Source of the DNA: Escherichia coli
Lineage (GTDB): Bacteria; Pseudomonadota; Gammaproteobacteria; Enterobacterales; Enterobacteriaceae
Length of the DNA stretch: 64,000 nt
NCBI RefSeq assembly: GCF_045037415.1
Contig: NZ_CP173438.1
Strand: one strand, 5' to 3'
This document shows positions 61 to 61,999 of the stretch, piece after piece. A model generated the notes under the pieces. The model worked only from the letters and a program-made list of their open reading frames with translations, was not told the origin of the DNA and searched no databases. Made by a program: the position numbers and the translations under genes. Each line of letters begins with the position of its first letter. The stretch's first letter is position 1.

Positions 61-893
61 TGCCGATGTTTCTCTTTTTACGCCGTTTACGCCATTCACC
101 CGCCGCGTTTTGCGGGTTGATAATTATCCTGTTATTGATGCTAATTGCGCTCTTCGCGCCGTGGCTGGCACCTCACGATCCTAACTGGCAGGATGCGGCG
201 GCGCGATTACAAGCACCGAGTCGTCAGCACTGGCTCGGCACTGACAGTTACGGGCGAGACCTACTTTCACGTTTAATCTACGGCAGCCGCCCGGCACTGG
301 GGCTGGTGGCATTGGTGACAATCATTACACTCCCGGTCGGTCTGCTGATTGGCATTTTAGCCGGGTACTACGGCGGCTGGCTGGAACGCGTGCTGATGCG
401 TTTTACTGACATAGTAATGTCAATGCCGCGTTTAATTCTGGCTTTTGCTTTTGTTGCCATGCTGGGGCCGGGGCTGGTTAACGGCGCACTGGCCCTTGCA
501 TTAACCACCTGGCCTGCTTATGCGCGTCAGGCACGGAGTGAGATCCAACGTCTGCGACACAGTGATTATCTTGCCGCCGCAGAAATGATGGGCATCCGCG
601 GCAGGCGTCTGCTGGCTGGTCATATTTTGCCATTGTGCCTGCCATCTGCCATTGTCCGTCTGGCGCTGGATTTAGCGGGTATCATTCTGGCGGCTGCTGG
701 TCTGGGTTTTCTTGGGCTTGGTGCTCGCCCGCCAATGGCGGAATGGGGAGCCATGATCGCCGACGGTATGCAGGTCATTTTTGATCAATGGTGGATTGCC
801 GCCGCTCCCGGCGCAATTATCTTAATTGCCAGTCTGGCCTTTAATCTGCTGGGTGATGGCTTGCGCGATGTTCTGGAGCCTCAACATGACTGA
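60..893 (+). CDS. ABC transporter permease, DppC/OppC/NikC-like
   Basis: 277-aa hydrophobic ORF. Motifs LFAPWLAPHDP and HWLGTDSYGRDLLSRLIYG are typical of DppC-type permeases. Translationally coupled to both neighbours. Confidence 0.85.
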   Translation: MPMFLFLRRLRHSPAAFCGLIIILLLMLIALFAPWLAPHDPNWQDAAARLQAPSRQHWLGTDSYGRDLLSRLIYGSRPALGLVALVTIITLPVGLLIGILAGYYGGWLERVLMRFTDIVMSMPRLILAFAFVAMLGPGLVNGALALALTTWPAYARQARSEIQRLRHSDYLAAAEMMGIRGRRLLAGHILPLCLPSAIVRLALDLAGIILAAAGLGFLGLGARPPMAEWGAMIADGMQVIFDQWWIAAAPGAIILIASLAFNLLGDGLRDVLEPQHD

Positions 894-2523: not shown

Positions 2524-3213
2524 ATGAAAAAAATTATCACTTTGATGTTGTTTTTGACATTCTTTGCCCACGCGAACGACTCCGAGCCTGGCAGCCAGTA
2601 TTTAAAGGCAGCAGAGGCCGGAAACCGACGCGCACAATATTTTCTTGCCGACAGCTGGTTTAGCTCCGGCGATTTGAGCAAAGCCGAATATTGGGCACAG
2701 AAAGCCGCCGACAGCGGTGATGCCGATGCCTGCGCGCTGTTGGCGCAGATCAAAATCACCAATCCGGTCAGTCTGGACTATCCACAAGCAAAAGTGCTTG
2801 CCGAGAAAGCAGCGCAAGCGGGCAGTAAAGAAGGTGAAGTAACGCTGGCGCATATTCTGGTAAATACGCAAGCGGGTAAACCGGATTATCCAAAGGCGAT
2901 TTCGCTGTTAGAAAACGCCTCGGAAGATCTGGAGAACGACTCTGCCGTCGATGCCCAAATGCTGCTTGGTTTGATTTACGCCAACGGCGTGGGCATTAAG
3001 GCCGACGATGACAAAGCAACCTGGTATTTCAAACGTAGCTCTGCGATTTCCCGAACCGGTTATTCCGAATACTGGGCGGGAATGATGTTCTTAAACGGTG
3101 AAGAGGGTTTTATCGAGAAGAATAAACAAAAGGCGCTGCACTGGTTGAATCTGAGCTGTATGGAAGGATTTGATACCGGTTGTGAAGAGTTTGAAAAATT
3201 AACTAACGGTTAA
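2524..3213 (+). CDS. yjcO: Sel1-repeat protein YjcO with signal peptide
   Basis: Signal sequence MKKIITLMLFLTFFAHA followed by repeated Sel1-like units (A..YW..KAA..GDA.A). From ATG 2524 it is 229 aa, as I recall for K-12 YjcO. Lies next to gltP. Confidence 0.85.
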   Translation: MKKIITLMLFLTFFAHANDSEPGSQYLKAAEAGNRRAQYFLADSWFSSGDLSKAEYWAQKAADSGDADACALLAQIKITNPVSLDYPQAKVLAEKAAQAGSKEGEVTLAHILVNTQAGKPDYPKAISLLENASEDLENDSAVDAQMLLGLIYANGVGIKADDDKATWYFKRSSAISRTGYSEYWAGMMFLNGEEGFIEKNKQKALHWLNLSCMEGFDTGCEEFEKLTNG

Positions 3214-5357: not shown

Positions 5358-5954
5358 TTAATCTGATCTCCGCTGCAACAATTTCGCCATATTAATCGAC
5401 TCGACCAGCTGTGTCCGGTTGATCCGGGGTGAGTTGAGATCCATCACTTTTTGCCATAGTTCGATGGCTTGCGCGTAATTCGCCTGCATAAACGCATCGG
5501 AAGCCAGCAGCATCAGAGCGGTGATTTCGTTAGAGTCCAGCGCGAGGGCTTTGTCGATCATTGCGCGAGCCTGGACGGTCATATGTTGGCTGGCCTGGTA
5601 ATACAGCACCGTCGCCAGCGCCGCATACAGTTCAGCGTTCTCACCACGTAGTTGCAACGCCTGACGGTACGCCAGCAGCGAATTGCTGTAATCGTTTTGC
5701 CACAGATAATACTCGCCCAGTAACGCCCACTGTTCGCTGTTTTGTGGATTAGCACGGATTTTATCCTGCAATGCCTGAAGCTGCGCTTCCGGGGTTTGCT
5801 GGCTGGCAAACTGATGCAGCGGATCGCGCTGACGCTGATACTCCGCACGTACCGCCTGCCATTTTGGACTTAACAGATAACTGCCGACACAGAGAAATAC
5901 CATCAAAATCGTGAGTGTTGTCAGCATTTTCACCGGTATTTGGGGCTGTTTCAT
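5358..5954 (-). CDS. nrfG: NrfG, TPR protein for NrfA CXXCK haem attachment
   Basis: From ATG 5954 ([13 protein letters not shown]...) it is 198 aa, as in K-12. ATGA overlap with the nrfF stop. TPR-like repeats. The 22-codon upstream extension in the ORF track overlaps nrfF. Confidence 0.9.
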
Positions 5955-6334
5955 CGCTTCGCCCTCACTCGCCAGAGGATCAGTGCCATCAGCAGTAACA
6001 ACACTACTGGCAGCGCCCACAACACCAGAGTCTGACCCGTTAACGGTGGGTTATAGCGAACAAAATCTCCGTAGCGTTCGGTCATCCAGCCAATGATTTC
6101 GACTTCACTTTTCCCCTCTTCCACCATGGTGTAAACCTGATGGCGCATACTGACTGCCACCGGCGCATTGGATTCCAGTAAGTTCTGATTCTGGCACTGC
6201 GGACAACGTAACTGGCTGGCAATATTTAACGCCTGTTCCTGTTGTTGCGGATTAGCGAATTGCCAGGTGTCTACAACCTGAGCGCGCGCAAAACAGGTAA
6301 ATAACAGCAGTAGCGTGAGAAGCCCTTTATTCAT
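5951..6334 (-). CDS. nrfF: NrfF, CcmH-like thiol-disulfide protein
   Basis: 127 aa with a signal peptide and the CPQC motif (LRCPQCQNQ). Operon position. Confidence 0.9.
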
Positions 6335-8009
6335 CGCGCTTCCTTCCCCGCCATCCGCTTAACAATGCGCCCGCAATCATCAACAATCCTCCCCCCCAGA
6401 TCCAGCGCACACCGCTTTGTACATACAAACGAAATGCGTAACGATCCGCTCCGGTTTTCTCTCCCATGACCGCATACCAGTCATGGATGCCGTTCCAGCG
6501 AATCGAGGGTTCCATCATTTGCTGACGGCGTGCTTCGTAAAAACGCCGCTCCGGCGTTAATTCACCAATGCGTTGCTGATGGTCAAACAGTGCCACTATC
6601 GCTTTTTCGCTGGTGTAATTGCCTTTGGCTTGCAGATCGAGGCGCTCAAAACGGAAGGTGTATCCTGCCAGCGTCACCTGCTGACCCGGCTGTAAATTCA
6701 GGCTGATCTCCTGACGGCTGACGCTGGAAACCACGATCCCCGCGGCAAATAACAGCACGCCCGCATGCGCCAGCAGCGTCGGAAGCCGCGCGCGTTTGCC
6801 AGAGACAAACGTCGCCAGCACAATCACCACCAGCATCAACAGAGCAAACGGTAACGTCGCGCGGTTAAAATACGGCGCGCCAACGGAGAGGCGTCCCCAG
6901 CCCAGCAGGCCGTAAATCATCGGATAAAGCGTTCCCACCAGCACGATCAGTAGCACTGCGCAAAACAGCAACAGCGTAGCGAGGATTAACATTTCCCGCG
7001 ATAACCCCGAAAAACGCACCGCCGGGCCACCGTCCCGCGCTCGCCAGCCATACAGAGCCAGAGACGCAAGGCTAATCAGTACAAACAGGCCGAACAACGG
7101 CACGGCGCGGACGTTATCCAGCGCGAACGCATGAACCGAAACCAGAATGCCAGAACGGACAATCAACGTGCCCAGCAGCGACAGCATCAGAGTAACTATC
7201 GTCAGCAACAGCGACCAGTGGCGGAAAATCCCCCGCTGGCGTGTCAGGGATAAACTGTGCAGCAGCGCTGTGGCAGAAAGCCAGGGTAGTAAAGAGGCGT
7301 TTTCCACCGGATCCCAGAACCACCAGCCGCCCCAGCCCAGTTCGCAATAGGCCCACCAGGAACCGAGGATGATCCCCGCTGTTAATGCGCTCCAGCCAGG
7401 TAGTGCCCAACGCCAGCAAATTCGGGCGCAGGTACCATCAAACTCGCCGCGCAGTAAACTCGCCAGCGCCACGCTCGCCGCCACCATCAAACCGCCGTAG
7501 CCGAGATAAAGCAGCGGTGGATGAAAGATAAGACCGGGATGTTGCAGCATCGGATTGAGATCGCGGCCTTCGATTGCTGGTGGAAATATCCGCACGAAGG
7601 GATCGGACCACAGCACCACAAACAGTAGCAGTGCGGCGAGCATGAGAGATAAAACGGCTAGCGTCAGCGGAAATAGCGGATCGGTTTGCTGCCGGTAATG
7701 CCAGGCAAACAGCGCGCTCCAGGCGGAAAGCAGCAGCACCCAAAGCAACAGCGAACCTTCATGACCGCCCCACACCGCCGCCAGTTTGAGTTCCCACGAC
7801 AGCAGGCTATAGCTATGTTGGGCGACATAAATAACCGAGAAATCGCTGATGAGAAAACAATACGTCAGTACGCCAAAGGCGAGCAGCAGGAGCGCGAACT
7901 GCGCCAGAATGCCGATGCAAGTGAGTCGCATCATGGCAGGCCAGCGCAACCGCACTCCCGCGAAGGCCGTCAACGGGATCAACACGTTGACCCCGAGACT
8001 TAACAACAA
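6327..8009 (-). CDS. nrfE: NrfE, CcmF-like haem lyase
   Basis: Polytopic membrane protein with the W-rich motif GWGGWWFWDPVENASLLPW. The track ORF starts at TTG 8009. A GTG 8 codons downstream (7985) gives the 552 aa I recall for K-12. The true start is uncertain (see findings). Confidence 0.9.
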   Translation of the reverse strand: MLLSLGVNVLIPLTAFAGVRLRWPAMMRLTCIGILAQFALLLLAFGVLTYCFLISDFSVIYVAQHSYSLLSWELKLAAVWGGHEGSLLLWVLLLSAWSALFAWHYRQQTDPLFPLTLAVLSLMLAALLLFVVLWSDPFVRIFPPAIEGRDLNPMLQHPGLIFHPPLLYLGYGGLMVAASVALASLLRGEFDGTCARICWRWALPGWSALTAGIILGSWWAYCELGWGGWWFWDPVENASLLPWLSATALLHSLSLTRQRGIFRHWSLLLTIVTLMLSLLGTLIVRSGILVSVHAFALDNVRAVPLFGLFVLISLASLALYGWRARDGGPAVRFSGLSREMLILATLLLFCAVLLIVLVGTLYPMIYGLLGWGRLSVGAPYFNRATLPFALLMLVVIVLATFVSGKRARLPTLLAHAGVLLFAAGIVVSSVSRQEISLNLQPGQQVTLAGYTFRFERLDLQAKGNYTSEKAIVALFDHQQRIGELTPERRFYEARRQQMMEPSIRWNGIHDWYAVMGEKTGADRYAFRLYVQSGVRWIWGGGLLMIAGALLSGWRGRKRDE

Positions 8010-8064
8010 CGCCAGAAAACCGACTTCAGGAAGGAATACGTCCAGAAACCACCTCTGTTCTGGC

Positions 8065-9021
8065 TTACGCCACCGTTAACTGCCCGGCGTAGAGAATGAA
8101 AAAGCGCAGCATCAACACGCCGACCAGGCTGGCCCCACATGCCGCCAGCACGGCAGGAATGCCGGAACTGCGATTGACCCACGGTTTGAGCAACATTGGC
8201 ACAATCAGCCCCAGCCCGGCGACACCAAGCCAGAACCACCACGTCCAGAAACCGCCGCCCAATGCCGCCACCAGCGCACGCACTTTACCGTCATCGCCCA
8301 GCGCCAGACCGACAAAAAACGCCACCAGCAGGAAGATTTCACCCCATACCACGGGGATTTCCATACGGTGTACAAAGTGCGCTTCCGTGGAATGCGGGTT
8401 ACTGCGTTGGCGTATCGCCATGGCGATCAGCGCCACCGCCGCACCGGACGAGATGCCGGAGAAGAGGAACAGCACCGGCAGGATCGGGTTATTGAGGAAC
8501 GGATACGATTTCAGCGCCGACAGCAGAAAGCCGGTATAAGCCCCCAACAACACCGCCAGCACCAGCATCAATGTTTCCAGTCCGCGATGAACGGGCGTCA
8601 GCAGGCTCAAGACCTTTTGCACGATCCCCAGCTTCGGCAACCAGCGTTGTTGCAGGGCAAGCAAATCATGTTCAAAGATTTTCGCCAGCCACAGCACCAG
8701 CACCACCATGTAAAGCTGAAACAGCATCACCCCCATCGACATCACCGAGGTAAAACTGTAGTGGAACATCAGCTTCCAGAAGGTCCACGGTCTTGTCAGG
8801 TGGAAGACGAGGATCAACAGACCGAGGATCACCGCGCCAGGCCCGACAATCAGCGTGGTGCGCAGCAACGTACTGTCTGCACCGCCTGCCTGCGGGTAGA
8901 AGCGACGTAACAGCACGGCCAGTGTCACCAGACCGGCAGAAATACCAATCAAAAACAGGTAGATGGCAATCGGCCAGTCCCACACCAGCGATTCAAAATG
9001 AAATGCGGAAGTCTGCGTCAT
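8065..9021 (-). CDS. nrfD: NrfD, integral membrane quinol dehydrogenase subunit
   Basis: 318-aa polytopic ORF. ATGA-type overlap with the nrfC stop (9018-9021). Operon position. Confidence 0.9.
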   Translation of the reverse strand: MTQTSAFHFESLVWDWPIAIYLFLIGISAGLVTLAVLLRRFYPQAGGADSTLLRTTLIVGPGAVILGLLILVFHLTRPWTFWKLMFHYSFTSVMSMGVMLFQLYMVVLVLWLAKIFEHDLLALQQRWLPKLGIVQKVLSLLTPVHRGLETLMLVLAVLLGAYTGFLLSALKSYPFLNNPILPVLFLFSGISSGAAVALIAMAIRQRSNPHSTEAHFVHRMEIPVVWGEIFLLVAFFVGLALGDDGKVRALVAALGGGFWTWWFWLGVAGLGLIVPMLLKPWVNRSSGIPAVLAACGASLVGVLMLRFFILYAGQLTVA

Positions 9022-9690
9022 TGGCTCACCTCCCCGTATTTAAACGGTACGCGGTACAGCTTCGGTTTGGTGCCCAGCGCCAGCTTGTAGCGGTAAGTGG
9101 GCTTCTGGCGCAGCAGTTGCGAAATCTCACTGTTGGGATCGTCCAGATTGCCAAACGTCAGCGCCTTCGTCGGGCAAGCTTCAACGCACGCGGGCAGCTT
9201 ACCGGCCTGCAAATGGGTCTTACGGCAGAAATCGCATTTGTCCGCCGTCTTCGTGACCGGATGGATAAAGCGCACGCGGTACGGACAGGCGGCGATGCAG
9301 TACTGACAACCGACGCAGAGATCCGGATTAACATCGACAATCCCACTGGCAGCGTCGCGAAAAGACGCACCGGTCGGGCAGACGTCAACGCACGGCGCAT
9401 GATCGCAGTGCTGGCAAGACTTACGGAAGAAGCGATATTTCACATCAGGAAATTCGCCCTGCGGCTCGCTACGAATAATCGTCAGGCGCGAGACGCCTTC
9501 CGGCACCTTGTTCACTTTCCGACAAGCATCCATACAGGCGGTACAGCCGATGCATAACGACTCGTCATGCACCATGCCGTAACGCACCCCATTGATATTC
9601 AACGTTTTCGCCACCACGCGCCCTGCGGTGCCGCTGACGGCGGCCAGCACACCGACGCCGGTGAGAAACTGGCGACGAGAACCAGGTCAT
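9018..9690 (-). pseudogene. nrfC: nrfC (4x[4Fe-4S] ferredoxin subunit), with its start codon out of frame because of a 1-nt insertion after codon 3
   Basis: The body frame (9018-9686) encodes PGSRRQFLTGVGVLAAVSGTAGRVVAK... with cysteine clusters CIGCTACMDAC, CQHCDHAPC, CVGCQYCIAAC. The only ATG (9688-9690, ATGACCTGGTTCTCG) is in another frame. The ORF track therefore starts at GTG 9650, downstream of the twin-arginine motif. Confidence 0.6.
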
Positions 9691-10253
9691 GGCTGCTCCT
9701 TAAGCAACGGAACAGACGCCGGGTTAAAGTTCGGATTGGTGCGCTGATCGCTGTGGCAATCGACGCAAATCTTAATCCGTCCTTTGTCACTTAACGTCTG
9801 CATCGTATCTTGCTGTGGATGCAGGGAATGGCAGCTGGCGCACGCCACTTTGGTTACGTGGACATCGTGCGGCCAGAATGCTTTTTGCAACTGTTCCGGC
9901 AGATGGCAGGACATACAGACGCTGTTCTGCTCTCCAACCTTGTACATCGGCTCGTTAAAGCGCATCACATCTTTCACCCCTTCGCGGTGTTGCGGTGATG
10001 GCTGGCCGTGACAGTTGGTGCAGGTGACCGGCAGTTTGTTATTCGGGTTGATAACGGAAGCATGTTTGCCATGCATACCTTCGGTATCTGGCTTATGACA
10101 GTCCAGACAGGCGGCATCCGGGTTACGCTGCTGGGTAACTTCGTAGCGATCACCAGATGCCTGCGCCGCAGGGGTAGCGGTAATTCCGTTCAGGCTCCAC
10201 AACAGGCCCGACGCCAGCACCCCGGCAGTTAATAACGAACGTAATACGCTCAT
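9687..10253 (-). CDS. nrfB: NrfB, periplasmic pentahaem cytochrome c
   Basis: Five CxxCH motifs (CLDCH, CTNCH, CMSCH, CASCH, CVDCH) and a signal peptide. From ATG 10253 (MSVLRSLL) it is 188 aa. ATG 10259 is an alternative start. Confidence 0.9.
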
Positions 10254-10297
10254 ATTCACTCCATTGTGTTTTCCGCCCCTTGCGAGGCGGAACGGGG

Positions 10298-11740
<1,443 letters not shown>

Positions 11741-11860
11741 TCATCCGAATTGAGCCATTGTTGCAATGGCGGTTTTTATTGTTTTTCACGACAGTAACCG
11801 CACCTACACTGTCATGACATTGCTCGCCCCTATGTGTAACAAATAACCACACTATGAATG

Positions 11861-11874
11861 TTGTCTTTAATCAA
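11861..11874 (-). promoter_or_regulatory. FNR-box-like inverted repeat upstream of nrfA
   Basis: The minus strand reads TTGATTAAAGACAA (consensus TTGAT-N4-ATCAA, 8 of 10 half-site positions) about 127 bp upstream of the nrfA ATG. nrf is known to be FNR-activated. Confidence 0.45.
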
Positions 11875-12028
11875 TTGTAAGTGCATGTAAAATACCACTT
11901 TAGAGTTAGTCGGTATCTTCCTCTTTTTCAACAACATGCATAACTGCATGTTCCTCAAAGAATTAATCAACTTTTGTTGCTGACCTTCAAAAATTACCCT
12001 GCCGTTTATTTGCACAATTCTACTTTTG

Positions 12029-12044
12029 CGTGATCTGTCGCCCA
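12029..12044 (+). promoter_or_regulatory. Weak CRP-box-like site in the acs promoter region
   Basis: cGTGAtctgtcGCCCA against TGTGA-N6-TCACA, about 90 bp upstream of the acs ATG. acs is known to be CRP-dependent. The match is only partial. Confidence 0.3.
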
Positions 12045-12125
12045 AATACTAAACAAAACTGCCAATACCCCTACATTTAACGCTTATGCCACATATTATT
12101 AACATCCTACAAGGAGAACAAAAGC

Positions 12126-14084
12126 ATGAGTCAAATTCACAAACACACCATTCCTGCCAACATCGCAGACCGTTGCCTGATAAACCCTCAGCAGTACGAG
12201 GCGATGTATCAACAATCTATTGACGCACCAGATACCTTCTGGGGCGAACAGGGAAAAATTCTCGACTGGATCACACCGTACCAGAAGGTGAAAAACACCT
12301 CCTTTGCCCCCGGTAATGTGTCCATTAAATGGTACGAGGACGGCACGCTGAATCTGGCGGCAAACTGCCTTGACCGCCATCTGCAAGAAAACGGCGATCG
12401 TACCGCCATCATCTGGGAAGGCGACGACGCCAGCCAGAGCAAACATATTAGCTATAAAGAGCTGCACCGCGACGTCTGCCGCTTCGCCAATACCCTGCTC
12501 GAACTGGGCATTAAAAAAGGTGACGTAGTTGCGATTTATATGCCGATGGTACCGGAAGCCGCGGTCGCGATGCTGGCCTGCGCCCGCATTGGCGCGGTAC
12601 ATTCGGTGATTTTCGGCGGCTTCTCGCCGGAAGCCGTTGCCGGACGCATTATCGACTCCAGTTCACGACTGGTGATCACTTCCGACGAAGGTGTGCGTGC
12701 CGGGCGTAGTATTCCGCTGAAGAAAAACGTTGATGACGCGCTGAAAAACCCGAACGTCACCAGCGTAGAGCATGTGGTGGTACTGAAGCGTACTGGCGGA
12801 AAAATTGACTGGCAGGAAGGGCGCGACCTGTGGTGGCACGACCTGGTTGAGCAAGCCAGCGATCAGCACCAGGCGGAAGAGATGAACGCCGAAGATCCGC
12901 TGTTTATTCTCTATACCTCCGGTTCTACCGGTAAGCCAAAAGGCGTGCTGCACACTACCGGCGGTTATCTGGTGTACGCGGCGCTGACCTTTAAATATGT
13001 CTTTGATTATCATCCGGGCGACATCTACTGGTGCACCGCCGATGTGGGCTGGGTTACCGGACACAGTTATTTGCTGTATGGCCCGCTGGCCTGCGGCGCG
13101 ACCACGCTGATGTTTGAAGGCGTACCGAACTGGCCGACGCCTGCCCGTATGGCGCAGGTGGTGGACAAGCATCAGGTCAATATTCTCTATACCGCGCCCA
13201 CGGCGATTCGCGCGCTGATGGCGGAAGGCGATAAAGCGATCGAAGGCACCGACCGTTCGTCGCTGCGCATTCTCGGTTCCGTGGGCGAGCCAATTAACCC
13301 GGAAGCGTGGGAGTGGTACTGGAAGAAGATCGGCAACGAGAAATGCCCGGTGGTCGACACCTGGTGGCAGACCGAAACTGGCGGTTTCATGATCACACCA
13401 CTGCCTGGCGCTACCGAGCTGAAAGCCGGTTCGGCAACACGTCCGTTCTTCGGCGTGCAACCGGCGCTGGTCGATAACGAAGGTAACCCGCTGAAGGGGG
13501 CCACCGAAGGCAGTCTGGTGATCACCGACTCCTGGCCGGGTCAGGCGCGTACGCTGTTTGGCGATCACGAACGTTTTGAGCAGACCTACTTCTCCACCTT
13601 CAAAAATATGTATTTCAGCGGCGACGGCGCGCGTCGTGATGAAGATGGCTATTACTGGATCACCGGGCGCGTGGACGACGTGCTGAACGTCTCCGGTCAC
13701 CGCCTGGGGACGGCAGAGATTGAGTCGGCGCTGGTGGCGCATCCGAAAATTGCCGAAGCCGCTGTGGTCGGTATTCCGCACAATATTAAAGGTCAGGCGA
13801 TCTACGCCTACGTCACGCTTAATCACGGGGAGGAACCGTCACCAGAACTGTACGCAGAAGTCCGCAACTGGGTGCGTAAAGAGATTGGCCCGCTGGCGAC
13901 GCCAGACGTGCTGCACTGGACCGACTCCCTGCCTAAAACCCGCTCCGGCAAAATTATGCGCCGTATTCTGCGCAAAATTGCGGCGGGCGATACCAGCAAC
14001 CTGGGCGATACCTCGACGCTTGCCGATCCTGGCGTAGTCGAGAAGCTGCTTGAAGAGAAGCAGGCCATCGCGATGCCATCGTAA
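12126..14084 (+). CDS. acs: Acetyl-CoA synthetase
   Basis: 652 aa with the AMP-binding motif [11 protein letters not shown]. Sequence recognised as E. coli Acs. Confidence 0.95.
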
Positions 14085-14089
14085 CCCAC

Positions 14090-14216
14090 AATTGTCGGAT
14101 GCGCTCCGACCTACATCTGGCAACGGCTGTAGGTCGGATAAGATGCGCCAGCATCGCATCCGACAACAAGCGCCGGATGCGGCGTGAATGCCTTATCCGG
14201 CCTACATTCGGCAAGG
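14090..14216. repeat. REP/BIME elements between acs and yjcH
   Basis: gtcggatgcgctccgacctac ... gtaggtcggataagatgcgccagcatcgcatccgac ... gccggatgcggcgtgaatgccttatccggcctac: three REP palindromes. Confidence 0.85.
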
Positions 14217-14293
14217 GTTACCCAAGCGTTAACCTTCTCCCATAAGGGAGCGGGAATTAAAACAATCCCTACATTACCTCTGGAGAATCTGTG

Positions 14294-16254
<1,961 letters not shown>

Positions 16255-18408: not shown

Positions 18409-20058
18409 TTACTGATTTTCCTCAATCAGCAACGCTTCAAGCAAATCGAGATCGTGCAGTAATTTTTGCAGCGTTTCGTTACTGATCTCCCGCGTGGCGC
18501 GCAGGTGGTACAGTTCAGCACGTTCAGAACGCAATGCCGCCAGACGGAAGCGACGCTCCAGGTTCTCTTCCAGGATTGAACTTTCTACATCATTACGTCC
18601 ATCGGCGCGACGACGCAGGTTACCAATGACGCGAGAACTAACCTCTGTGAGCAGCTGGTTATCGATATTCTCTTCGGTATCCGCCGCCAAACGCTCCTCC
18701 ATTTTCTGGATCGCCACAATCGCCACTTCTGCCGTTGCCGCTCGTGCAATACGTTCCTCTTTCAATTGTTGCGAATGGTCCGCGACTTCTATGTGTTGTA
18801 GCAGAATAGGCAACATCACCACGCCGACAAACAACGAGAAGAGAATGACGCCAGCCGCCAGGAACACCAACTCATAGCGCGCAGGGAAGACGTTACCATC
18901 CGGCAAGAGAAGCGGGATAGAGAGCACACCGGCCAGAGTGATCGCCCCACGCACCCCGGCGAAAGACGCGATCAGGATTTCTCGTGTAGTCCACGAACCA
19001 AACTCCATCGGCTTCTTCTTCAGGAAGCGGTTGCTGAACTTTTTCATCGTCCACAGCCAGCCGAAACGGACCAGCATCAGCGCCGCATATATCAGAATAA
19101 TATCGGTAAACAGCATCCAGATTTCGACGTTAGGATCGATTTCTGCCGCCATCAGCGACGTCTCCAGAATCCCCGGCAACTGCAGACCTAACAGCAGGAA
19201 CACCATGCCGTTAAAGACAAATTCCAGCATCGCCCAGGTGCTGTTTGCGCGCAGGCGCATTGCCAGCGGCGCACGGCGCATCACACCGGAGCGGGTGATG
19301 GTCATCCCGGCGGCAACCGCAGCGAGGATGCCGGAAACGCCAATATGTTCCGCAATCAGATAAGAAGCGAATGGCAGCAAGAACAGCAGAACGATCTGCG
19401 TCGCGGGTTCATCACCGCCCCAGCGGCTGAGGAATCGCAGCGAGCGACCATACAGCCAGCTCACCACAAAACCGGCGAGAATACCGCCTATTGCCACTTT
19501 CATAAATTCGACCGTCGCACCGCCGACGGTGAAGATCATTGTCCCCATCGCCACTGCCACGGCAAACTTCAACGACACCAGGCCGGAGGCGTCATTCATC
19601 AACGCTTCGCCCTGCAAAATGCCCATGATTTTTTTCGGGATGCGCCCCTCGCCAACAATCCCGGAGAGCGCTACAGCATCGGTCGGAGAAAGCACCGCAG
19701 CCAGCGCAAAGGCGGGGATCAGCGGAATGCCCGGCACCACCCAGTAAATAAGGAAGCCAATGCCGACCACGGTGACCACCACCAGCGCCAGCGCGAGGCC
19801 GAAAATCTCTCGCCCATGTTCGAGAAATTCACGGGTCGGCGTTTTCCAACCATCAGCGAACAGCAACGGCGGGATAAACAAGACTAAAAAGAGTTCAGGA
19901 TCAAACTCCACATGCAAACCAAACGTCGGCCACGCCAGTAGCGCACCGATGGCGATTTGCATAAGCGGAAGCGGGATCTGAAAGGGCATGACACGAGTGA
20001 CCACCCCGGACAGCGAGACCACGAGGGTCATTATCAGTATGGTGAAGAAGATTTCCAT
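18409..20058 (-). CDS. yjcE: Putative Na+/H+ exchanger (CPA1 family)
   Basis: 549-aa ORF (MEIFFTILIMTLVVSLSGVV...) with a polytopic N-terminal domain and a soluble C-terminal tail. K-12 length and position. Confidence 0.9.
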   Translation of the reverse strand: MEIFFTILIMTLVVSLSGVVTRVMPFQIPLPLMQIAIGALLAWPTFGLHVEFDPELFLVLFIPPLLFADGWKTPTREFLEHGREIFGLALALVVVTVVGIGFLIYWVVPGIPLIPAFALAAVLSPTDAVALSGIVGEGRIPKKIMGILQGEALMNDASGLVSLKFAVAVAMGTMIFTVGGATVEFMKVAIGGILAGFVVSWLYGRSLRFLSRWGGDEPATQIVLLFLLPFASYLIAEHIGVSGILAAVAAGMTITRSGVMRRAPLAMRLRANSTWAMLEFVFNGMVFLLLGLQLPGILETSLMAAEIDPNVEIWMLFTDIILIYAALMLVRFGWLWTMKKFSNRFLKKKPMEFGSWTTREILIASFAGVRGAITLAGVLSIPLLLPDGNVFPARYELVFLAAGVILFSLFVGVVMLPILLQHIEVADHSQQLKEERIARAATAEVAIVAIQKMEERLAADTEENIDNQLLTEVSSRVIGNLRRRADGRNDVESSILEENLERRFRLAALRSERAELYHLRATREISNETLQKLLHDLDLLEALLIEENQ

Positions 20059-20208: not shown

Positions 20209-21558
20209 TTAGATAGCCCAGCCACCCGCATAGAAGGTCACCAGCGCCACGGCAATAACGACCGTACCGATGTTCAACTTGCGCCATTCGCCGGAAACCA
20301 GACGACCAATCACCAGAGTCGCGAAGCCAATCATGATGCCTGTTACGATGTTACAGGTCAGCACGATGAATACCGCCGTAACCAGACCCGCCATCGCATC
20401 AACAAAATCAGCAAAGTCGATTTTCGCCACGTTGCTCAGCATCAGCAGGCCAACGTACATCAGCGCCGGAGCCGTTGCGTACCCCGGAACGAGGTAAGAG
20501 AGCGGAGAGAGGAACAGAATCAGCAGGAACAGCACGCCAACGGTGATAGCCGTCAAACCGGTTTTACCGCCCGCCGCCGTACCCGCCGCAGACTCGATGT
20601 ATACCGCTGCCGGAGCTGCACCCACCAGGCCAGAAAAAACGCTGCTCATGGAGTCGGTGGTCAGTGCTTTCCCGCCGTCGATGATCTGCCCATCTTTATC
20701 CAGCAGGTTCGCCTGACCGGCGACGGCACGGATAGTTCCGGTGGCATCAAATACTGCCGTCATCACCAGTGCCAGAACACTTGGCAGGACTACAGGATTC
20801 AGCGCGCCCATAATGTCCAGGCTGCCTATCAGTGAATTGCCGTTTTCATCGCTCAATGAAGGCATGGCGAAAACGCCGGAGAAATGGACGTTAGGATCGA
20901 AGATCAAACCGACAATTGAGATACCGATAATGGTCAGCAGAATGCCGCCAGGGACTTTCAGTTTTTCCAGGCCGATAATCACTGCCAGCCCCACCAACGA
21001 CATCATCACCGGAAAGGTCGTAAAATCCCCCAGCGCGACGGGCAGACCATCAAGCGGGTTTTTAATCACCAGACCGACACCATTAGCGGCAATGAGCAGC
21101 AGGAACAGACCGATACCAATCCCCGTGCCGTGCGCCACACCGTGCGGCAAGTTGCGCAAAATCCAGCTACGGATACCCGTGGCAGAAATTACCGTAAACA
21201 GCACACCCATCAGGAACACGGCACCCAGCGCGACAGGTACGCTAATATGTTGCCCCAGCACCAGACTGAATGCGGTAAACGCCGTCAGAGAGATGGCGCA
21301 ACCAATCGCCAACGGCAGATTAGCCCACAGACCCATCACGATAGAACCGAGTCCGGCAACCAGACAGGTTGCAACGAAAACTGCCGCAGGCGGGAAGCCC
21401 GCTTTACCCAACATGCCTGGAACGACGATAACCGAGTAGACCATCGCCAGAAACGTTGTTAACCCGGCAACCACTTCCTGACGGACAGTGCTTCCACGTT
21501 GTGAAATTTTAAACCAGGCGTCGAGTGAACCGCCGGTACGCGCTGATGGCGTAGACAT
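20209..21558 (-). CDS. ghxP: Guanine/hypoxanthine permease (NCS2/AzgA family)
   Basis: 449-aa ORF ([28 protein letters not shown]...). Recognised as YjcD/GhxP. Confidence 0.9.
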
Positions 21559-21617
21559 AAGAAAACATCCCCTGAGAGTTTAATTTTCGTCAAGATGCGT
21601 GGCGGACAATCCCCTGC

Positions 21618-21831
21618 CAGCGAAACGTTATCTTCCTGCTCCAGGTTTGCGACAATTTGCTGCGTCGCAAAAAAAGCAAACGTTTAGCTCCGCGCATACA
21701 AAACGGGTGGTAAAAAAAGCAAACGATTATCCGGCGATCATAGCGGCTTTTTCAACCGAAGTTTGCTGCTTTTTTCTCTTTTATTGTCTTGACGATGAAA
21801 AACCAGGCAATTGATGCGCAAACGTTATCGT
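21618..21831. promoter_or_regulatory. Cluster of four PurR-box-like motifs upstream of ghxP
   Basis: cagcgAAACGTTatct (21618-21633), aaGCAAACGTTTagct (21674-21689), aaGCAAACGaTTatcc (21717-21732), gcGCAAACGTTatcgt (21816-21831). Consensus is aNGCAAACGTTTNCNT. Confidence 0.45.
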
Positions 21832-21971
21832 CGATGCGCAAGATTGCAGCGTTATCGAGCCGTATACCGTTCAGGATTGCGATAAAAAATCGTCTGAGAT
21901 GACAAAAATATTGCGGCTAAAAAGTGTACTTTTACACTGGCGAAGAAACGCCGGTAACATACAATTAAAGC

Positions 21972-22112
21972 ATCAACACCAACCGGAACCTCCACCACGT
22001 GCTCGAATGAGGTGTGTTGACGTCGGGGGAAACCCTCCTGTGTACCAGCGGGATAGAGAGAAAGACAAAGACCGGAAAACAAACTAAAGCGCCCTTGTGG
22101 CGCTTTAGTTTT
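21972..22112 (+). ncRNA. ryjA: Probable RyjA small RNA, convergent with and overlapping the soxR 3' end
   Basis: Placed from my recollection of the K-12 map (about 140 nt, overlapping the last codons of soxR). Supported here by a TACAAT -10 at 21960-21965 and a strong terminator at 22081-22114. Confidence 0.4.
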
Positions 22113-22114
22113 GT
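22081..22114. terminator. Bidirectional intrinsic terminator (soxR and ryjA)
   Basis: aaactaaagcgcc-cttg-tggcgctttagttt, a perfect 13-bp stem flanked by an A-run and a T-run. Confidence 0.8.
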
Positions 22115-22569
22115 TCATCTTCCAGTAAGCGTGCGCCGGTACCTTCTTCTCCTAAGCGGTCGCCCGGGTTACGCAACGGGCAATCACTGCGCGAAAGGCA
22201 GCCACAACCAATACATCCATCCAGTTCGTCACGCAGCGCCACTAAGGTATGAATGCGCCGATCCAACTCTTCTCGCCATTGGGACGAAAGCTGTTTCCAC
22301 TCTTTCGCACTTAACGTATGCCCTTCTGGCAACACGCCAAACGCTTCACGAATGGTTGCGAGCGGAATGCCAATACGCTGAGCAATTTTGATAATTGCGA
22401 CATATCGCAACACATCACGTTTATATCGCCGCTGATTGCCGCTATTACGGATACTGGTAATCAACCCTTTGCTTTCATAGAAATGCAGCGCCGATACCGC
22501 CACACCGCTGCGTTTCGCCACTTCGCCGGGTGTTAGCAGCGCTTTAATGCGGGGTAATTTCTTTTCCAT
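22105..22569 (-). CDS. soxR: Redox-sensing MerR-family activator SoxR
   Basis: 154 aa with a MerR HTH and the [2Fe-2S] cysteine cluster [12 protein letters not shown]. Confidence 0.95.
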
Positions 22570-22580
22570 AAATCGCTTTA

Positions 22581-22607
22581 CCTCAAGTTAACTTGAGGAA
22601 TTATACT
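22581..22607 (+). promoter_or_regulatory. soxS promoter with the SoxR operator in the spacer
   Basis: Perfect palindrome CCTCAAGTTAACTTGAGG (22581-22598) followed by the TATACT -10 (22602-22607). This is the known SoxR binding architecture. Confidence 0.85.
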
Positions 22608-22654
22608 CCCCAACAGATGAATTAACGAACTGAACACTGAAAAGAGGCAGATTT

Positions 22655-22978
22655 ATGTCCCATCAGAAAATTATTCAGGATCTTATCGCATGGATTGACG
22701 AGCATATTGACCAGCCGCTTAACATTGATGTCGTCGCAAAAAAATCTGGCTATTCAAAGTGGTACTTGCAACGGATGTTCCGCACGGTGACGCATCAGAC
22801 GCTTGGCGATTACATTCGCCAGCGCCGTCTGTTACTGGCCGCCGTTGAGTTGCGCACCACCGAGCGTCCGATTTTTGATATCGCAATGGACCTGGGTTAT
22901 GTCTCTCAGCAGACCTTCTCCCGCGTTTTCCGTCGGCAGTTTGATCGCACTCCCAGCGATTATCGCCACCGCCTGTAG
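22655..22978 (+). CDS. soxS: AraC-family superoxide-response activator SoxS
   Basis: 107-aa ORF (MSHQKIIQDLIAWIDEHIDQPLNIDVVAKKSGYSKWYLQRMF...). Confidence 0.95.
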   Translation: MSHQKIIQDLIAWIDEHIDQPLNIDVVAKKSGYSKWYLQRMFRTVTHQTLGDYIRQRRLLLAAVELRTTERPIFDIAMDLGYVSQQTFSRVFRRQFDRTPSDYRHRL

Positions 22979-24567: not shown

Positions 24568-24850
24568 TGCTATCAATTCCCTGCCTGTTTATACCCGGTT
24601 ATTGCAAGGTGAAACCCTGGCTACCGACGTCTTTAGATAAATCTTACGGTATAAATAGCACTTTTGCCTGATATAAAATTGAGAACCTTTTTAATCGTCA
24701 CCAGGATGACGATAATTCATTGATCTTAAAAATTAATCACCTTCAGGAATGCAGAGGCGGCGGGAAGATATACCCTTAATGCCGCTGAAAAAACACATAA
24801 TCTGTACGGCAATAAAAGTCACGGCCTAATCTGGCTAACAAACAACCAAT

Positions 24851-47332: not shown

Positions 47333-48412
47333 TTAATCCACGTATTTCATCGCGACTCTTGAAGTCAGGCGCGTAATAAGTTCGTAAGCACTTACCTTCG
47401 TCATTTCAGCGATACGTTCTACGGGCAAACCTTCGCCCCATAAAATGACCGGGGCCCCGGCTTTATCCTGCGCCTGTGGACCTAAGTCTACGCAGATCAT
47501 ATCCATCGCCACGCGCCCGACAATCGGCACTTCGCGACCGTTCACCAGCACTGGCGTACCGGACGGCGCGGCGCGCGGATAACCATCGCCATAGCCCATC
47601 GCGACTACGCCAAGACGAGTATCACGTTCGCTTACCCAGGTTCCACCATAACCGACAGGCTCTCCGGCTTTATGCTCACGCACGGCAATCAGGCTGGAGG
47701 TTAGCGACATCACTGGCTGACAGCCAAAATCGGCACCGGTGGAGCGATCTTCCAGCGGAGATACGCCGTAAAGAATGATGCCCGGGCGCACCCAGTCAAA
47801 ATGCGACTGTGGCCAGAGTAAAATGCCACCCGACGCGGCAATGGAACGTTGACCAGGCTTGCCTTCGCAAAAGGTATTAAAGATAGCGAGTTGCTTCTCG
47901 GTTGCGCCACATTTTGGTTCATCCGCGCGCGCAAAATGGCTGACGATATTCACCGGCTGACGAACGTTTTTGCACTGGGTCAGACGATGATAAAACGCCT
48001 CAGCCTGTTCCGGCCTTACGCCCAGACGGTGCATACCGGTATCGAGTTTCATCCAGACGGTAACCGGCTCGTCCAGGTTAGCCTCTTCCAGCGCAGCAAG
48101 CTGTTCTTCGTTATGCACGGCGGTATGAAAATGTTGCGCAGAAATCGTCGGTAGATCTCTGGCATCAAAAAAGCCTTCGAGTAAAAGTACAGGTTTGGTG
48201 ATTCCCCCCGCACGCAGTCGCAGAGCTTCTTCGAGACGGGCTACGCCAAAGGCGTCAGCATCGGGGAGCGTTCGCGCGGTCTCAAGAAGACCGTGACCAT
48301 AAGCGTTCGCTTTCACCACCGCAACCATTTTACTGGCAGGTGCCAGTTCACGAAGACGTTGCAGGTTGTGTCGCAGAGCGCGGCGGTTAATCACAACAGT
48401 TGCCGCTTGCAT
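47333..48412 (-). CDS. alr: Alanine racemase (biosynthetic)
   Basis: 359 aa. PLP-lysine motif [10 protein letters not shown]. Confidence 0.95.
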
Positions 48413-61982: not shown

Positions 61983-61999
61983 CGCGGTTCAGAGATATG

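What the first reader, a model, noticed from the sequence alone, without database searches (positions are those of the whole stretch)
9640..9700. A 1-nt insertion separates the nrfC start codon from its twin-arginine signal peptide; the nrfC body is now in frame with nrfB
The NrfC N-terminus as I recall it is MTWSRRQFLTGVGVLAAV. Here the minus strand reads ATG ACC TGG T TCT CGT CGC CAG TTT, with GGTTCT where GGTCT is expected.

As a result, SRRQFLTGVGVLAAVSG... and the whole Fe-S protein lie in a different frame from the only ATG (9688-9690). The supplied ORF track agrees with this. The nrfC ORF starts at GTG 9650, after the RR motif, and the overlapping ORF 9599-9790 reads ...[15 protein letters not shown] through the extra base.

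In the body frame the sequence is ...KEQP-TGA-PGSRRQFL.... This means nrfB and the nrfC body are now in one frame, separated only by the nrfB stop codon.

Three explanations are possible. The gene may be a real pseudogene, giving loss of NrfCD quinol oxidation and hence of formate-dependent nitrite ammonification. It may be an assembly error in a short T run. Or expression may depend on a +1 shift or stop read-through.
Basis: partly seen in the sequence, partly recalled or inferred. Interest (0 to 1): 0.5.

Follow-up and report, generated by a model that had tools for sequence, protein, structure and literature searches.

The report
False nrfC frameshift at methylated site
The extra base that seems to break the nitrite-reductase gene nrfC is almost certainly a sequencing error at a methylated restriction-enzyme site (GGTCTC), so the gene is probably intact; the same error creates false broken genes in several public E. 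coli genomes.

Summary
The minus strand reads ATGACCTGGTTCTCG, where K-12 and the ST131 reference EC958 read ATGACCTGGTCTCG. The extra T separates the ATG from the SRRQFL Tat motif and puts the nrfC body in frame with nrfB.

It is very unlikely to be biology. Against EC958, the 64-kb window has only three indels, and all three lie inside GGTCTC/GAGACC. That is the site of the Eco31I-type restriction-modification system of ST131, reported as 100% m6A-methylated and predicted m5C-methylated on the other strand.

Only 9 of 5,426 complete E. coli genomes share the nrfC insertion. All four independent carrier lineages encode both Eco31I methyltransferases, which only 633 of 5,426 genomes have. Clonal sister isolates disagree on which GGTCTC sites are "mutated". 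An artificial insertion at an untouched site matched one real genome from the same clone. Two near-motif controls matched none. In the carriers, 25 of 33 small indels lie at this motif.

Best explanation (confidence 0.92): a methylation-induced long-read consensus error. nrfC is intact and identical to EC958's WP_000220293.1. A real pseudogene, a frameshift or read-through are all unlikely. Biological interest is low. The practical point is that RefSeq carries false "frameshifted" genes at Eco31I sites.

The parts
9677..9683 (+). Eco31I recognition site with one extra base: GAGAACC where EC958 and K-12 have GAGACC (minus strand GGTTCTC versus GGTCTC). The extra A/T is position 9680 or 9681. 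The site overlaps nrfC codons 3-5 and abuts a Dcm site (CCTGG).
   Evidence: Motif identity and methylation come from PMC4659465.
9018..9690 (-). nrfC (Fe-S subunit of the NrfCD quinol dehydrogenase), 673 nt as written. With the extra base removed it is 672 nt and identical to EC958 nrfC (WP_000220293.1), starting MTWSRRQFLTGVG (Tat signal).
   Evidence: (no other difference from EC958 in 9018-9690).
9687..10253 (-). nrfB (pentahaem cytochrome). Its TGA stop at 9689-9687 overlaps the nrfC ATG (ATGA). The gene is intact.
24681..24687 (+). Second Eco31I site with the same extra base (GAGAACC where EC958 has GAGACC), in the pdeC-yjcB intergenic region.
   Evidence: The same insertion occurs in 14 of 5,426 genomes.
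61986..61990 (+). Third aberrant Eco31I site: GGTTC where EC958 has GGTCTC. The lost base is the cytosine predicted to be 5-methylated. It lies about 10 nt beyond the lexA stop, in the lexA-dinF intergenic region.
256..261 (+). Eco31I site (GAGACC) unaltered in the window. The same site reads GAGAACC in strain 447.
20015..20020 (+). Eco31I site (GAGACC) in yjcE, unaltered in the window. It reads GAGAACC in strain 446, where yjcE is annotated 'frameshifted'.
48278..48283 (-). Eco31I site in alr, unaltered in the window. Strain A1.S1.126 has an extra base next to it, and alr is annotated 'frameshifted' there.
2621..2626 (+). Former Eco31I site in yjcO, lost in the window by a substitution (GAAACC where EC958 has GAGACC). 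The substitution is shared with WP3-S18-ESBL-08. In the Esc isolates and strain 439 the site reads GAGAACC and yjcO is annotated 'frameshifted'.

Best explanation
The extra T in nrfC is a consensus or basecalling artefact of sequencing native DNA with long reads (nanopore-type). It is not a change in the genome.

The source strain belongs to, or is very close to, E. coli ST131. ST131 carries the Eco31I-type IIS restriction-modification system on GI-leuX. That system methylates every GGTCTC/GAGACC site as GAG(m6A)CC, and is predicted to make GGT(m5C)TC on the other strand.

The doubly modified hexamer distorts the signal. As a result the consensus at a fraction of these sites gains or loses one base, most often by duplicating the modified A (T on the other strand). 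One such site happens to span nrfC codons 3-5 (TGG TCT CGT). The error there mimics a frameshift that cuts the start codon off from the twin-arginine signal.

The true gene is the normal 672-nt nrfC, and the Nrf pathway is expected to be intact.

Shown here: the motif specificity, the scatter among clonal isolates, the restriction to methylase-carrying genomes, and the predictive test with its controls. Inferred: that the sequencing platform was nanopore-type, that the window's own genome carries the methylases, and that methylation is the proximate cause.
For: 1. The window differs from EC958 over 64 kb by 2 substitutions and 3 single-base indels. All 3 indels lie inside Eco31I sites, of which the EC958 reference has only 7 in this stretch. 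By my arithmetic the chance of this is about (49/64000)^3, or roughly 5e-10.

2. GAGACC is reported as 100% m6A-methylated in ST131 strain EC958, with m5C predicted on the other strand (PMC4659465). Both marks were also called from nanopore data in ATCC 25922 (PMC12679398).

3. Clonal isolates disagree.
- Esc2 and Esc26 have the nrfC insertion but not the one at 24684. Esc3 and Esc22 show the reverse.
- In the Taiwanese clone the annotated frameshifts differ: yjcO, nrfC and uvrA in 439; nrfC, yjcE and lpdA in 446; nrfC alone in 463. The yjcO, nrfC and yjcE ones are at the motif. The lpdA one is a C10 homopolymer deletion and the uvrA one lies in neither a motif nor a homopolymer.

4. An insertion-specific 45-mer finds the nrfC insertion in only 9 of 5,426 complete genomes. 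These are four independent lineages, and each encodes intact M1 and M2 Eco31I methyltransferases. Only 633 of 5,426 genomes have those genes. This includes strain 98212, whose nrf region is K-12-like.

5. A prediction held. An artificial GAGAACC 45-mer for site 256, which is untouched in the window, matched exactly one real genome: strain 447 of the same Taiwanese clone. Two near-motif controls (GAGACG to GAGAACG, CAGACC to CAGAACC) matched none.

6. The insertion at site 24684 occurs in 14 genomes. Four of them are nrfC carriers and five are their clonal siblings or Esc-series isolates (447, Esc3, Esc4, Esc22, Esc29).

7. In the carrier loci, 25 of 33 small indels are at Eco31I sites and 4 are in homopolymers of 5 or more bases. 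The forms at the motif vary (+A, -C, -G, +G). The comparison genome WP3-S18-ESBL-08 has none.

8. avs4 is split at GGTCTC to GGTTCTC in 98212 and in three UID genomes. It is annotated intact in every one of the other listed matches (one search lists 25 of the 374 matching records), and intact strain AR_451 has GGTCTC at that position.

9. Methylation-induced nanopore errors specific to strain and motif are established in general (PMC11610573).
Against: - No raw reads and no record of the sequencing platform were available for the window or the carriers, so the artefact is inferred from pattern alone.
- The Eco31I locus lies outside the window, so its presence in the source genome is assumed from the ST131-identical sequence.
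- The published methylation-induced nanopore errors I could read are substitutions, not indels.
- No paper in the searchable library reports indels at this motif.
- The nrfC site is hit more often than most other sites. All three sequenced members of the Taiwanese clone that carry it agree with each other, so inheritance within that one clone cannot be excluded.
- The window itself shows no homopolymer errors.
Confidence: 0.92

Rival explanations
1. The strain has a genuine 1-nt insertion, making nrfC a pseudogene. The ATG yields a 41-aa out-of-frame peptide. Any NrfC made from GTG 9650 lacks the twin-arginine signal and cannot be exported by Tat. NrfCD quinol oxidation is lost, and with it formate-dependent nitrite ammonification.
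For: The deposited sequence does contain the base. The consequences for the reading frame are exactly as described. All three sequenced carriers of the Taiwanese clone agree at this site, as inheritance would predict. nrf is dispensable under many conditions (general knowledge).
Against: - The same insertion would have to have arisen independently in four or more lineages, and to be gained or lost among clonal Esc isolates that differ by no substitution over 50 kb.
- It lies in the same 6-bp motif as the window's only two other indels.
- The same genomes carry similar 'mutations' at this motif in yjcO, yjcE, alr, avs4, fecB, fecD and others.
- It was not found in 5,417 other genomes.
Confidence: 0.05
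2. The indels are real and come from a biological process aimed at Eco31I sites, such as error-prone repair after nicking or cleavage by the restriction enzyme, or methylation-dependent mutagenesis. This would produce heterogeneous single-base changes at GGTCTC within clones.
For: The events show extreme motif specificity and variability within clones. They are restricted to genomes that carry the system.
Against: - The changes are inside the recognition hexamer. Eco31I/BsaI cuts 1 and 5 nt outside it (established enzymology).
- Carriers with a disrupted endonuclease gene show the same events. In A1.S1.126 the gene is split by ISEc52. In Esc2 it is truncated next to an ISEcp1-blaCTX-M-15 insertion.
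- About 620 other genomes with the same R-M genes show nothing at the nrfC site.
- The implied rate, 20-50% of sites per isolate, would quickly inactivate many genes.
- The same assemblies also contain homopolymer errors.
Confidence: 0.015
3. Expression is rescued by recoding: either a +1 ribosomal frameshift near TGG-TTC-T, or read-through of the nrfB UGA giving an NrfB-NrfC fusion.
For: nrfB and the nrfC body are in one frame, separated only by UGA followed by C. From general knowledge, that is a comparatively leaky stop context.
Against: - This arrangement is not conserved. 5,417 of 5,426 genomes did not match the insertion probe, and those I read have the ordinary overlapping ATGA junction.
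- There is no slippery or stimulatory element.
- A fusion would be exported by Sec with NrfB and could not receive its cytoplasmically assembled Fe-S clusters (inference from known Tat and Sec biology).
- The premise, a real extra base, is itself unlikely.
Confidence: 0.005
4. The extra base is a generic assembly error unrelated to Eco31I methylation, for example caused by the adjacent Dcm site (CCTGG) or by ordinary short-homopolymer slippage.
For: The nrfC site directly abuts a Dcm site, and it is among the most frequently affected sites.
Against: - Dcm and this junction sequence are present in K-12-like and other lineages. Yet all nine carriers fall within lineages that carry the Eco31I genes, which only 11.7% of genomes have.
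- The other affected sites (24684, 61988, yjcO, yjcE, avs4) have no adjacent Dcm site.
- Near-motif controls gave no hits.
Confidence: 0.01

Closest known systems
Methylation-induced nanopore basecalling and consensus errors in bacterial genomes (e.g. Lohde et al. 2024, PMC11610573)
   Same: The errors recur at one short sequence motif. They depend on the strain's methyltransferases, vary between isolates of one clone, and mislead downstream analysis.
   Different: The published cases I could read are purine or pyrimidine substitutions. Here the errors are single-base indels, at a hexamer methylated on both strands (m6A plus predicted m5C). They therefore appear as frameshifted 'pseudogenes' in annotation. 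I found no report for this motif.
Eco31I/BsaI-type IIS restriction-modification system (RM.EcoMI of ST131, on GI-leuX; Forde et al. 2015, PMC4659465)
   Same: The recognition sequence GGTCTC/GAGACC is exactly the motif where every indel in the window lies. The inserted base is the adenine reported as methylated.
   Different: The system is the presumed cause of a sequencing artefact and is not part of the nrf locus. It lies outside the window and could only be confirmed in the public carrier genomes.
E. coli nrfABCDEFG operon and Tat-exported NrfC
   Same: Gene order, the overlapping nrfB stop and nrfC start (ATGA), and, once the extra base is removed, the MTWSRRQFLTGVG signal are identical to K-12 and EC958.
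   Different: Only the single extra base in the deposited sequence.
Programmed +1 frameshifting (prfB type) and UGA read-through
   Same: An in-frame UGA or a one-base offset separates two coding segments.
   Different: The offset is not conserved across strains and there are no recoding signals. The offset is probably not in the DNA at all.

Membership tests
Methylation-motif-associated long-read consensus error | The discrepancy coincides with a motif known to be methylated in this lineage. | tested here: met
   The extra base duplicates the A of GAG(A)CC. GAGACC is reported 100% m6A-methylated in EC958, with m5C predicted on the other strand.
Methylation-motif-associated long-read consensus error | Other discrepancies in the same assembly fall on the same motif. 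| tested here: met
   All 3 indels in the 64-kb window are at Eco31I sites, and 3 of the 6 sites expected in this lineage are affected.
Methylation-motif-associated long-read consensus error | The genome encodes the cognate methyltransferase. | not testable with these tools
   The locus (GI-leuX) lies outside the window. It is met in all four independent public carrier lineages, Esc2, 98212, A1.S1.126 and 439. Only 633 of 5,426 genomes have the genes.
Methylation-motif-associated long-read consensus error | Occurrence is stochastic among clonal isolates and does not follow descent. | tested here: met
   Esc2 and Esc26 versus Esc3 and Esc22, and strains 439, 446, 463 and 447, differ in which sites are hit, while being identical or nearly so elsewhere.
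Methylation-motif-associated long-read consensus error | The error is absent when the same DNA is read by an orthogonal method or after amplification. | not testable with these tools
   No reads or platform metadata were available. Indirectly, EC958 (whose methylome was read with PacBio SMRT sequencing) and 5,417 other genomes lack the insertion.
Genuine loss-of-function pseudogene of nrfC | The lesion is inherited by descent within a clade. | tested here: not met
   Clonal Esc isolates are discordant. Carriers come from four unrelated sources, including one with a K-12-like nrf region.
Genuine loss-of-function pseudogene of nrfC | The lesion is physically present in genomic DNA. | not testable with these tools
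   This needs Sanger or Illumina reads of the junction.
Programmed ribosomal frameshift or stop read-through gene | The out-of-frame arrangement is conserved among orthologues and has a recoding signal. | tested here: not met
   5,417 of 5,426 genomes did not match the insertion-specific probe, and those I read are in frame. No slippery motif is seen.
Tat-exported NrfC Fe-S protein | A twin-arginine motif (S/T-R-R-x-F-L) sits directly after the start codon. | tested here: inconclusive
   As written, the motif is out of frame with the ATG. With the suspect base removed, the gene is identical to EC958 nrfC and starts MTWSRRQFLTGVG.

The most novel reading that the evidence does not exclude
The single-base changes at GGTCTC are real and reflect site-directed mutagenesis of Eco31I recognition sequences in cells that carry the system. 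That would be a self-inflicted hypermutation that erodes restriction sites and incidentally switches genes such as nrfC, yjcO, yjcE and avs4 on and off within a clone.
Probability: 0.015. Interest if true: 0.85.

Novelty: not a real feature. Interest (0 to 1): 0.12.

Why it matters
For biology this matters little. nrfC, and with it formate-dependent nitrite ammonification, should be regarded as intact in this strain.

For data quality it is worth knowing. Assemblies of E. coli that carry the Eco31I-type methylases (633 of 5,426 complete genomes, about 12%, mostly ST131) can gain or lose one base at GGTCTC sites. RefSeq then records false "frameshifted" pseudogenes. Those traced to the motif here are nrfC, yjcO, yjcE, alr, avs4, fecB, fecD, a GTPase gene and a GRP-family sugar transporter gene.

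Such errors could inflate pseudogene counts and distort cgMLST or SNP/indel distances in outbreak tracing of a major pandemic clone. They could also be misread as adaptive gene loss.

There is a simple screen: look for GGTTCTC or GAGAACC where close relatives have GGTCTC or GAGACC.

Tried and rejected
- **Real clade-specific pseudogene.** I first treated the 8 identical public genomes as a possible clade sharing a real mutation. I rejected this when clonal Esc26 and Esc22 proved discordant.
- **Dcm or T-run slippage.** I considered the adjacent Dcm site (CCTGG) or a short T run as the cause. I rejected it because the other affected sites lack both, and all carriers belong to the Eco31I-positive minority.
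- **EcoP1-like type III motif (AGACC).** I considered this from memory. It was superseded by the documented Eco31I assignment, and the CAGACC control gave no hits.
- **Finding the window's own genome.** No record matches the first 25 kb exactly, so the source assembly is not in that collection and its platform is unknown.
- **Locating the Eco31I locus.** The paper's old locus tags (EC958_0008-10) did not help, because the current record starts at thrL. Fixed syntenic offsets also missed. Anchoring on leuX worked.
- **Phylogeny from the window.** ST131 genomes differ by only 0-2 substitutions in 64 kb, so I used clonal markers instead: the soxR allele, the ghxP-soxS deletion and the ssb1 allele.
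- **Literature on this motif's error.** Searches returned nothing specific.
- **Depletion of GAGACC in the window.** There are 3 sites against about 16 expected. K-12 is similarly poor in them, with 4 in 45 kb, so this is not informative here.

Full report
**1. The observation**

The window's minus strand at 9690-9666 reads ATGACCTGGTTCTCGTCGCCAGTTT. K-12 MG1655 and the ST131 reference EC958 read ATGACCTGGTCTCG, and both translate to MTWSRRQFLTGVGVLAAVSGTAGR.

- From the ATG, the window encodes only a 41-residue out-of-frame peptide.
- The mechanically listed nrfC ORF begins at GTG 9650, after the twin-arginine motif.
- In the nrfB frame the sequence reads ...LLKEQP*PGSRRQFLTGVG....

Every sequence-level statement in the finding is confirmed.

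**2. Distribution in public genomes**

The window is ST131-like. Its first 25 kb and next 25 kb match hundreds of ST131 chromosomes at essentially 100%.

A 241-nt query over the junction is identical in only 8 of 5,426 complete E. coli genomes. The next-best hits are one base shorter.

I then built an insertion-specific 45-mer. Its flanks are shorter than the 28-nt megablast word, so only genomes carrying the insertion can seed a hit. It finds 9 genomes:

- A1.S1.126 (Poland)
- 439, 446 and 463 (Taiwan, one clone)
- Esc2, Esc14, Esc25 and Esc26 (one clone)
- 98212 (Egypt)

NCBI's pipeline marks nrfC "frameshifted" in every one of these whose annotation I read.

**3. The key observation**

I aligned the whole 64-kb window to EC958. 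There are 2 substitutions and exactly 3 single-base indels:

- +A at 9680, in nrfC
- +A at 24684, in the pdeC-yjcB spacer
- -C at about 61988, just past lexA

All three lie inside the hexamer GAGACC/GGTCTC. EC958 has only seven copies of it in this stretch. By my own arithmetic, three random indels would all land in those roughly 49 positions of 64,000 with probability about 5e-10.

**4. What the motif is**

Forde et al. 2015 (PMC4659465) show that GGTCTC is the recognition site of the Eco31I-type IIS restriction-modification system of ST131 (RM.EcoMI, on GI-leuX).

- In EC958, 100% of GAGACC sites carry m6A (GAG-m6A-CC).
- The partner enzyme is predicted to make GGT-m5C-TC on the other strand.

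The base duplicated in the window is exactly the methylated adenine. The base lost at about 61988 is the cytosine predicted to be methylated. Both marks were also called from nanopore data in E. coli ATCC 25922 (PMC12679398).

**5. Discordance within clones**

The Esc isolates share a soxR allele and have genome sizes within a few tens of bases of each other. Yet Esc2 and Esc26 carry the nrfC insertion and not the one at 24684, while Esc3 and Esc22 show the reverse.

The Taiwanese isolates share a 1.9-kb ghxP-soxS deletion and an ssb1 allele. Their annotated frameshifts in this stretch differ:

| Isolate | Genes annotated "frameshifted" |
|---|---|
| 439 | yjcO, nrfC, uvrA |
| 446 | nrfC, yjcE, lpdA |
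| 463 | nrfC |

The yjcO, nrfC and yjcE frameshifts, and an extra base at the intergenic site 24684 in all three isolates, are at the motif. The lpdA frameshift is a deletion in a C10 run, and the uvrA one lies in neither a motif nor a homopolymer.

Apart from these indels, the sisters differ by zero or one substitution over 50 kb. A heritable mutation does not behave like this. A stochastic consensus error does.

**6. A prediction and its controls**

If the motif causes the error, other Eco31I sites should occasionally be hit in the same sequencing batches.

- The insertion at 24684 occurs in 14 genomes. Four are nrfC carriers. Five are their clonal siblings or Esc-series isolates (447, Esc3, Esc4, Esc22, Esc29).
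- I built an artificial GAGAACC 45-mer for site 256, which is intact in the window and in all ten genomes first examined. It matched exactly one real record: strain 447 of the Taiwanese clone.
- Two near-motif controls with the same kind of A duplication matched nothing in 28 Gb. They were GAGACG to GAGAACG inside nrfC, and CAGACC to CAGAACC inside nrfA.

**7. Link to the methylases**

The M1 and M2 Eco31I genes occur in 633 of 5,426 genomes, or 11.7%. All four independent carrier lineages encode both, with proteins identical to EC958's: Esc2, 98212, A1.S1.126 and 439.

Strain 98212 is the informative one. Its nrf region is K-12-like at 99.94%, so the nrfC insertion there cannot be shared ST131 ancestry at this locus. 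Yet it carries the ST131-type GI-leuX with the full R-M system. It also has a second GGTCTC to GGTTCTC event that splits avs4. That gene is annotated intact in all the other listed matching genomes (one search lists 25 of the 374 matching records), and intact strain AR_451 has GGTCTC at that position.

In two carriers the endonuclease gene is disrupted: split by ISEc52 in A1.S1.126, and truncated next to an ISEcp1-blaCTX-M-15 insertion in Esc2. Cleavage by the enzyme is therefore not needed.

**8. Wider tally**

I compared all carrier loci I had fetched with EC958.

- 25 of 33 small indels lie at Eco31I sites. Their forms vary: +A, -C, -G and +G.
- 4 lie in homopolymers of five or more bases.
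- 2 of the rest sit at the edge of a structural difference.
- The comparison genome WP3-S18-ESBL-08 has no indels.
- A1.S1.126 alone has alr, lpdA, nrfC, nrfE and nrfG "frameshifted" within 50 kb, and six more frameshifted genes in another 50 kb.

This is the profile of noisy long-read assemblies.

**9. Interpretation**

The most economical account is this. Native DNA doubly methylated at GGTCTC confuses the basecaller or polisher. One such site spans nrfC codons 3-5, and the resulting extra T imitates a frameshift. With that base removed, the window's nrfC is identical to EC958's over its whole length. I put this at 0.92.

Strain- and motif-specific methylation errors in nanopore assemblies are well documented (PMC11610573). 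The cases I could read are substitutions, however. I found no report of indels at this motif.

**10. Rivals**

- **Real pseudogene (0.05).** It needs the same insertion to recur in four lineages, to flicker within a clone, and to coincide with the motif that holds the window's only other indels.
- **Real mutagenesis directed at Eco31I sites (0.015).** This would be remarkable. But the changes lie inside the recognition site, not at the cleavage position. They occur in strains with a broken endonuclease gene. About 620 other genomes with the system show nothing at nrfC.
- **Recoding by +1 frameshift or UGA read-through (0.005).** The arrangement is not conserved and has no recoding signals. A Sec-exported NrfB-NrfC fusion could not carry Fe-S clusters (inference).
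- **Generic error from the neighbouring Dcm site (0.01).** This does not explain the other sites, or the restriction to methylase carriers.

**11. Limits**

I had no reads and no platform metadata. The methylase locus lies outside the window. No public record is identical to the window, so its source assembly could not be inspected. The decisive test is trivial: Sanger or short-read sequence of the junction.

**12. Verdict**

The biological interpretation of gene loss or recoding is not supported. The feature is best classed as not real. Its residual value is practical: it flags a systematic source of false frameshifts at GGTCTC sites in public genomes of Eco31I-positive E. coli.

Noticed in passing
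window 10731 (nrfA, minus strand): A substitution (G to A on the + strand) that none of the four compared genomes (EC958, Esc26, Esc22, WP3-S18-ESBL-08) shares. It changes NrfA ...RKQSINDL... to ...RKQLINDL... (Ser to Leu). It could be a real private SNP or a G-to-A long-read substitution error.
   Followed up: partly
window 2623 (yjcO): A G-to-A substitution turns an Eco31I site GAGACC into GAAACC. It is shared with strain WP3-S18-ESBL-08, where yjcO is annotated as an intact allele (WP_032153517.1), so it is probably a real lineage marker that removes a restriction site.
   Followed up: partly
window, whole (GAGACC sites at 256, 20015, 48278): GAGACC/GGTCTC is strongly under-represented: 3 copies against about 16 expected from dinucleotide-preserving shuffles. 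K-12 is similarly poor, with 4 copies in 45 kb. This could be long-term restriction avoidance or codon bias; I did not resolve which.
   Followed up: partly
L024 (Esc2, NZ_OZ369324.1) 5798-15253: An ISEcp1-blaCTX-M-15 unit, plus IS26, aac(6')-Ib-cr and blaOXA-1, is inserted in the chromosome between the Eco31I cytosine methylase and the endonuclease gene. It truncates the endonuclease and leaves both methylases intact.
   Followed up: no
L027 (A1.S1.126, NZ_CP146588.1) 31187-34179: The Eco31I endonuclease gene is split by an ISEc52 copy into two 'hypothetical proteins', while both methylases remain intact. This makes an orphan-methylase state.
   Followed up: no
L016, L025, L026 (strain 98212, NZ_CP173524.1): This genome is a mosaic. 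The nrf-fdhF-als region is 99.94% K-12-like, with K-12-type gene content (espX5/yjcF, fdhF, mdtNOP). The leuX flank and GI-leuX carry ST131 protein alleles. This suggests large-scale recombination between phylogroups. gltP also carries a 5-bp tandem duplication (GTAAT) that looks like a real frameshift.
   Followed up: partly
L011-L013 (strains 439, 446, 463), corresponding to window ~20874-22822: The Taiwanese ST131 clone has a 1,949-bp deletion that removes the 5' part of ghxP, all of soxR and part of soxS. This would be loss of the SoxRS superoxide response if real; all three assemblies agree on it.
   Followed up: no
window 25001-50000 versus one search hits: Many ST131 genomes carry an island of about 11.9 kb here, absent from the window and from EC958. 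Its annotated genes include the anti-phage gene avs4. In 98212 and three UID genomes avs4 is falsely split at a GGTCTC site.
   Followed up: partly
window 8009-8045 (nrfE start): RefSeq annotates nrfE in EC958 as starting 36 nt upstream of the first ATG/GTG/TTG that the ORF lister found (8045 versus 8009), and 20 codons longer than the K-12 annotation. The true start is unclear.
   Followed up: no
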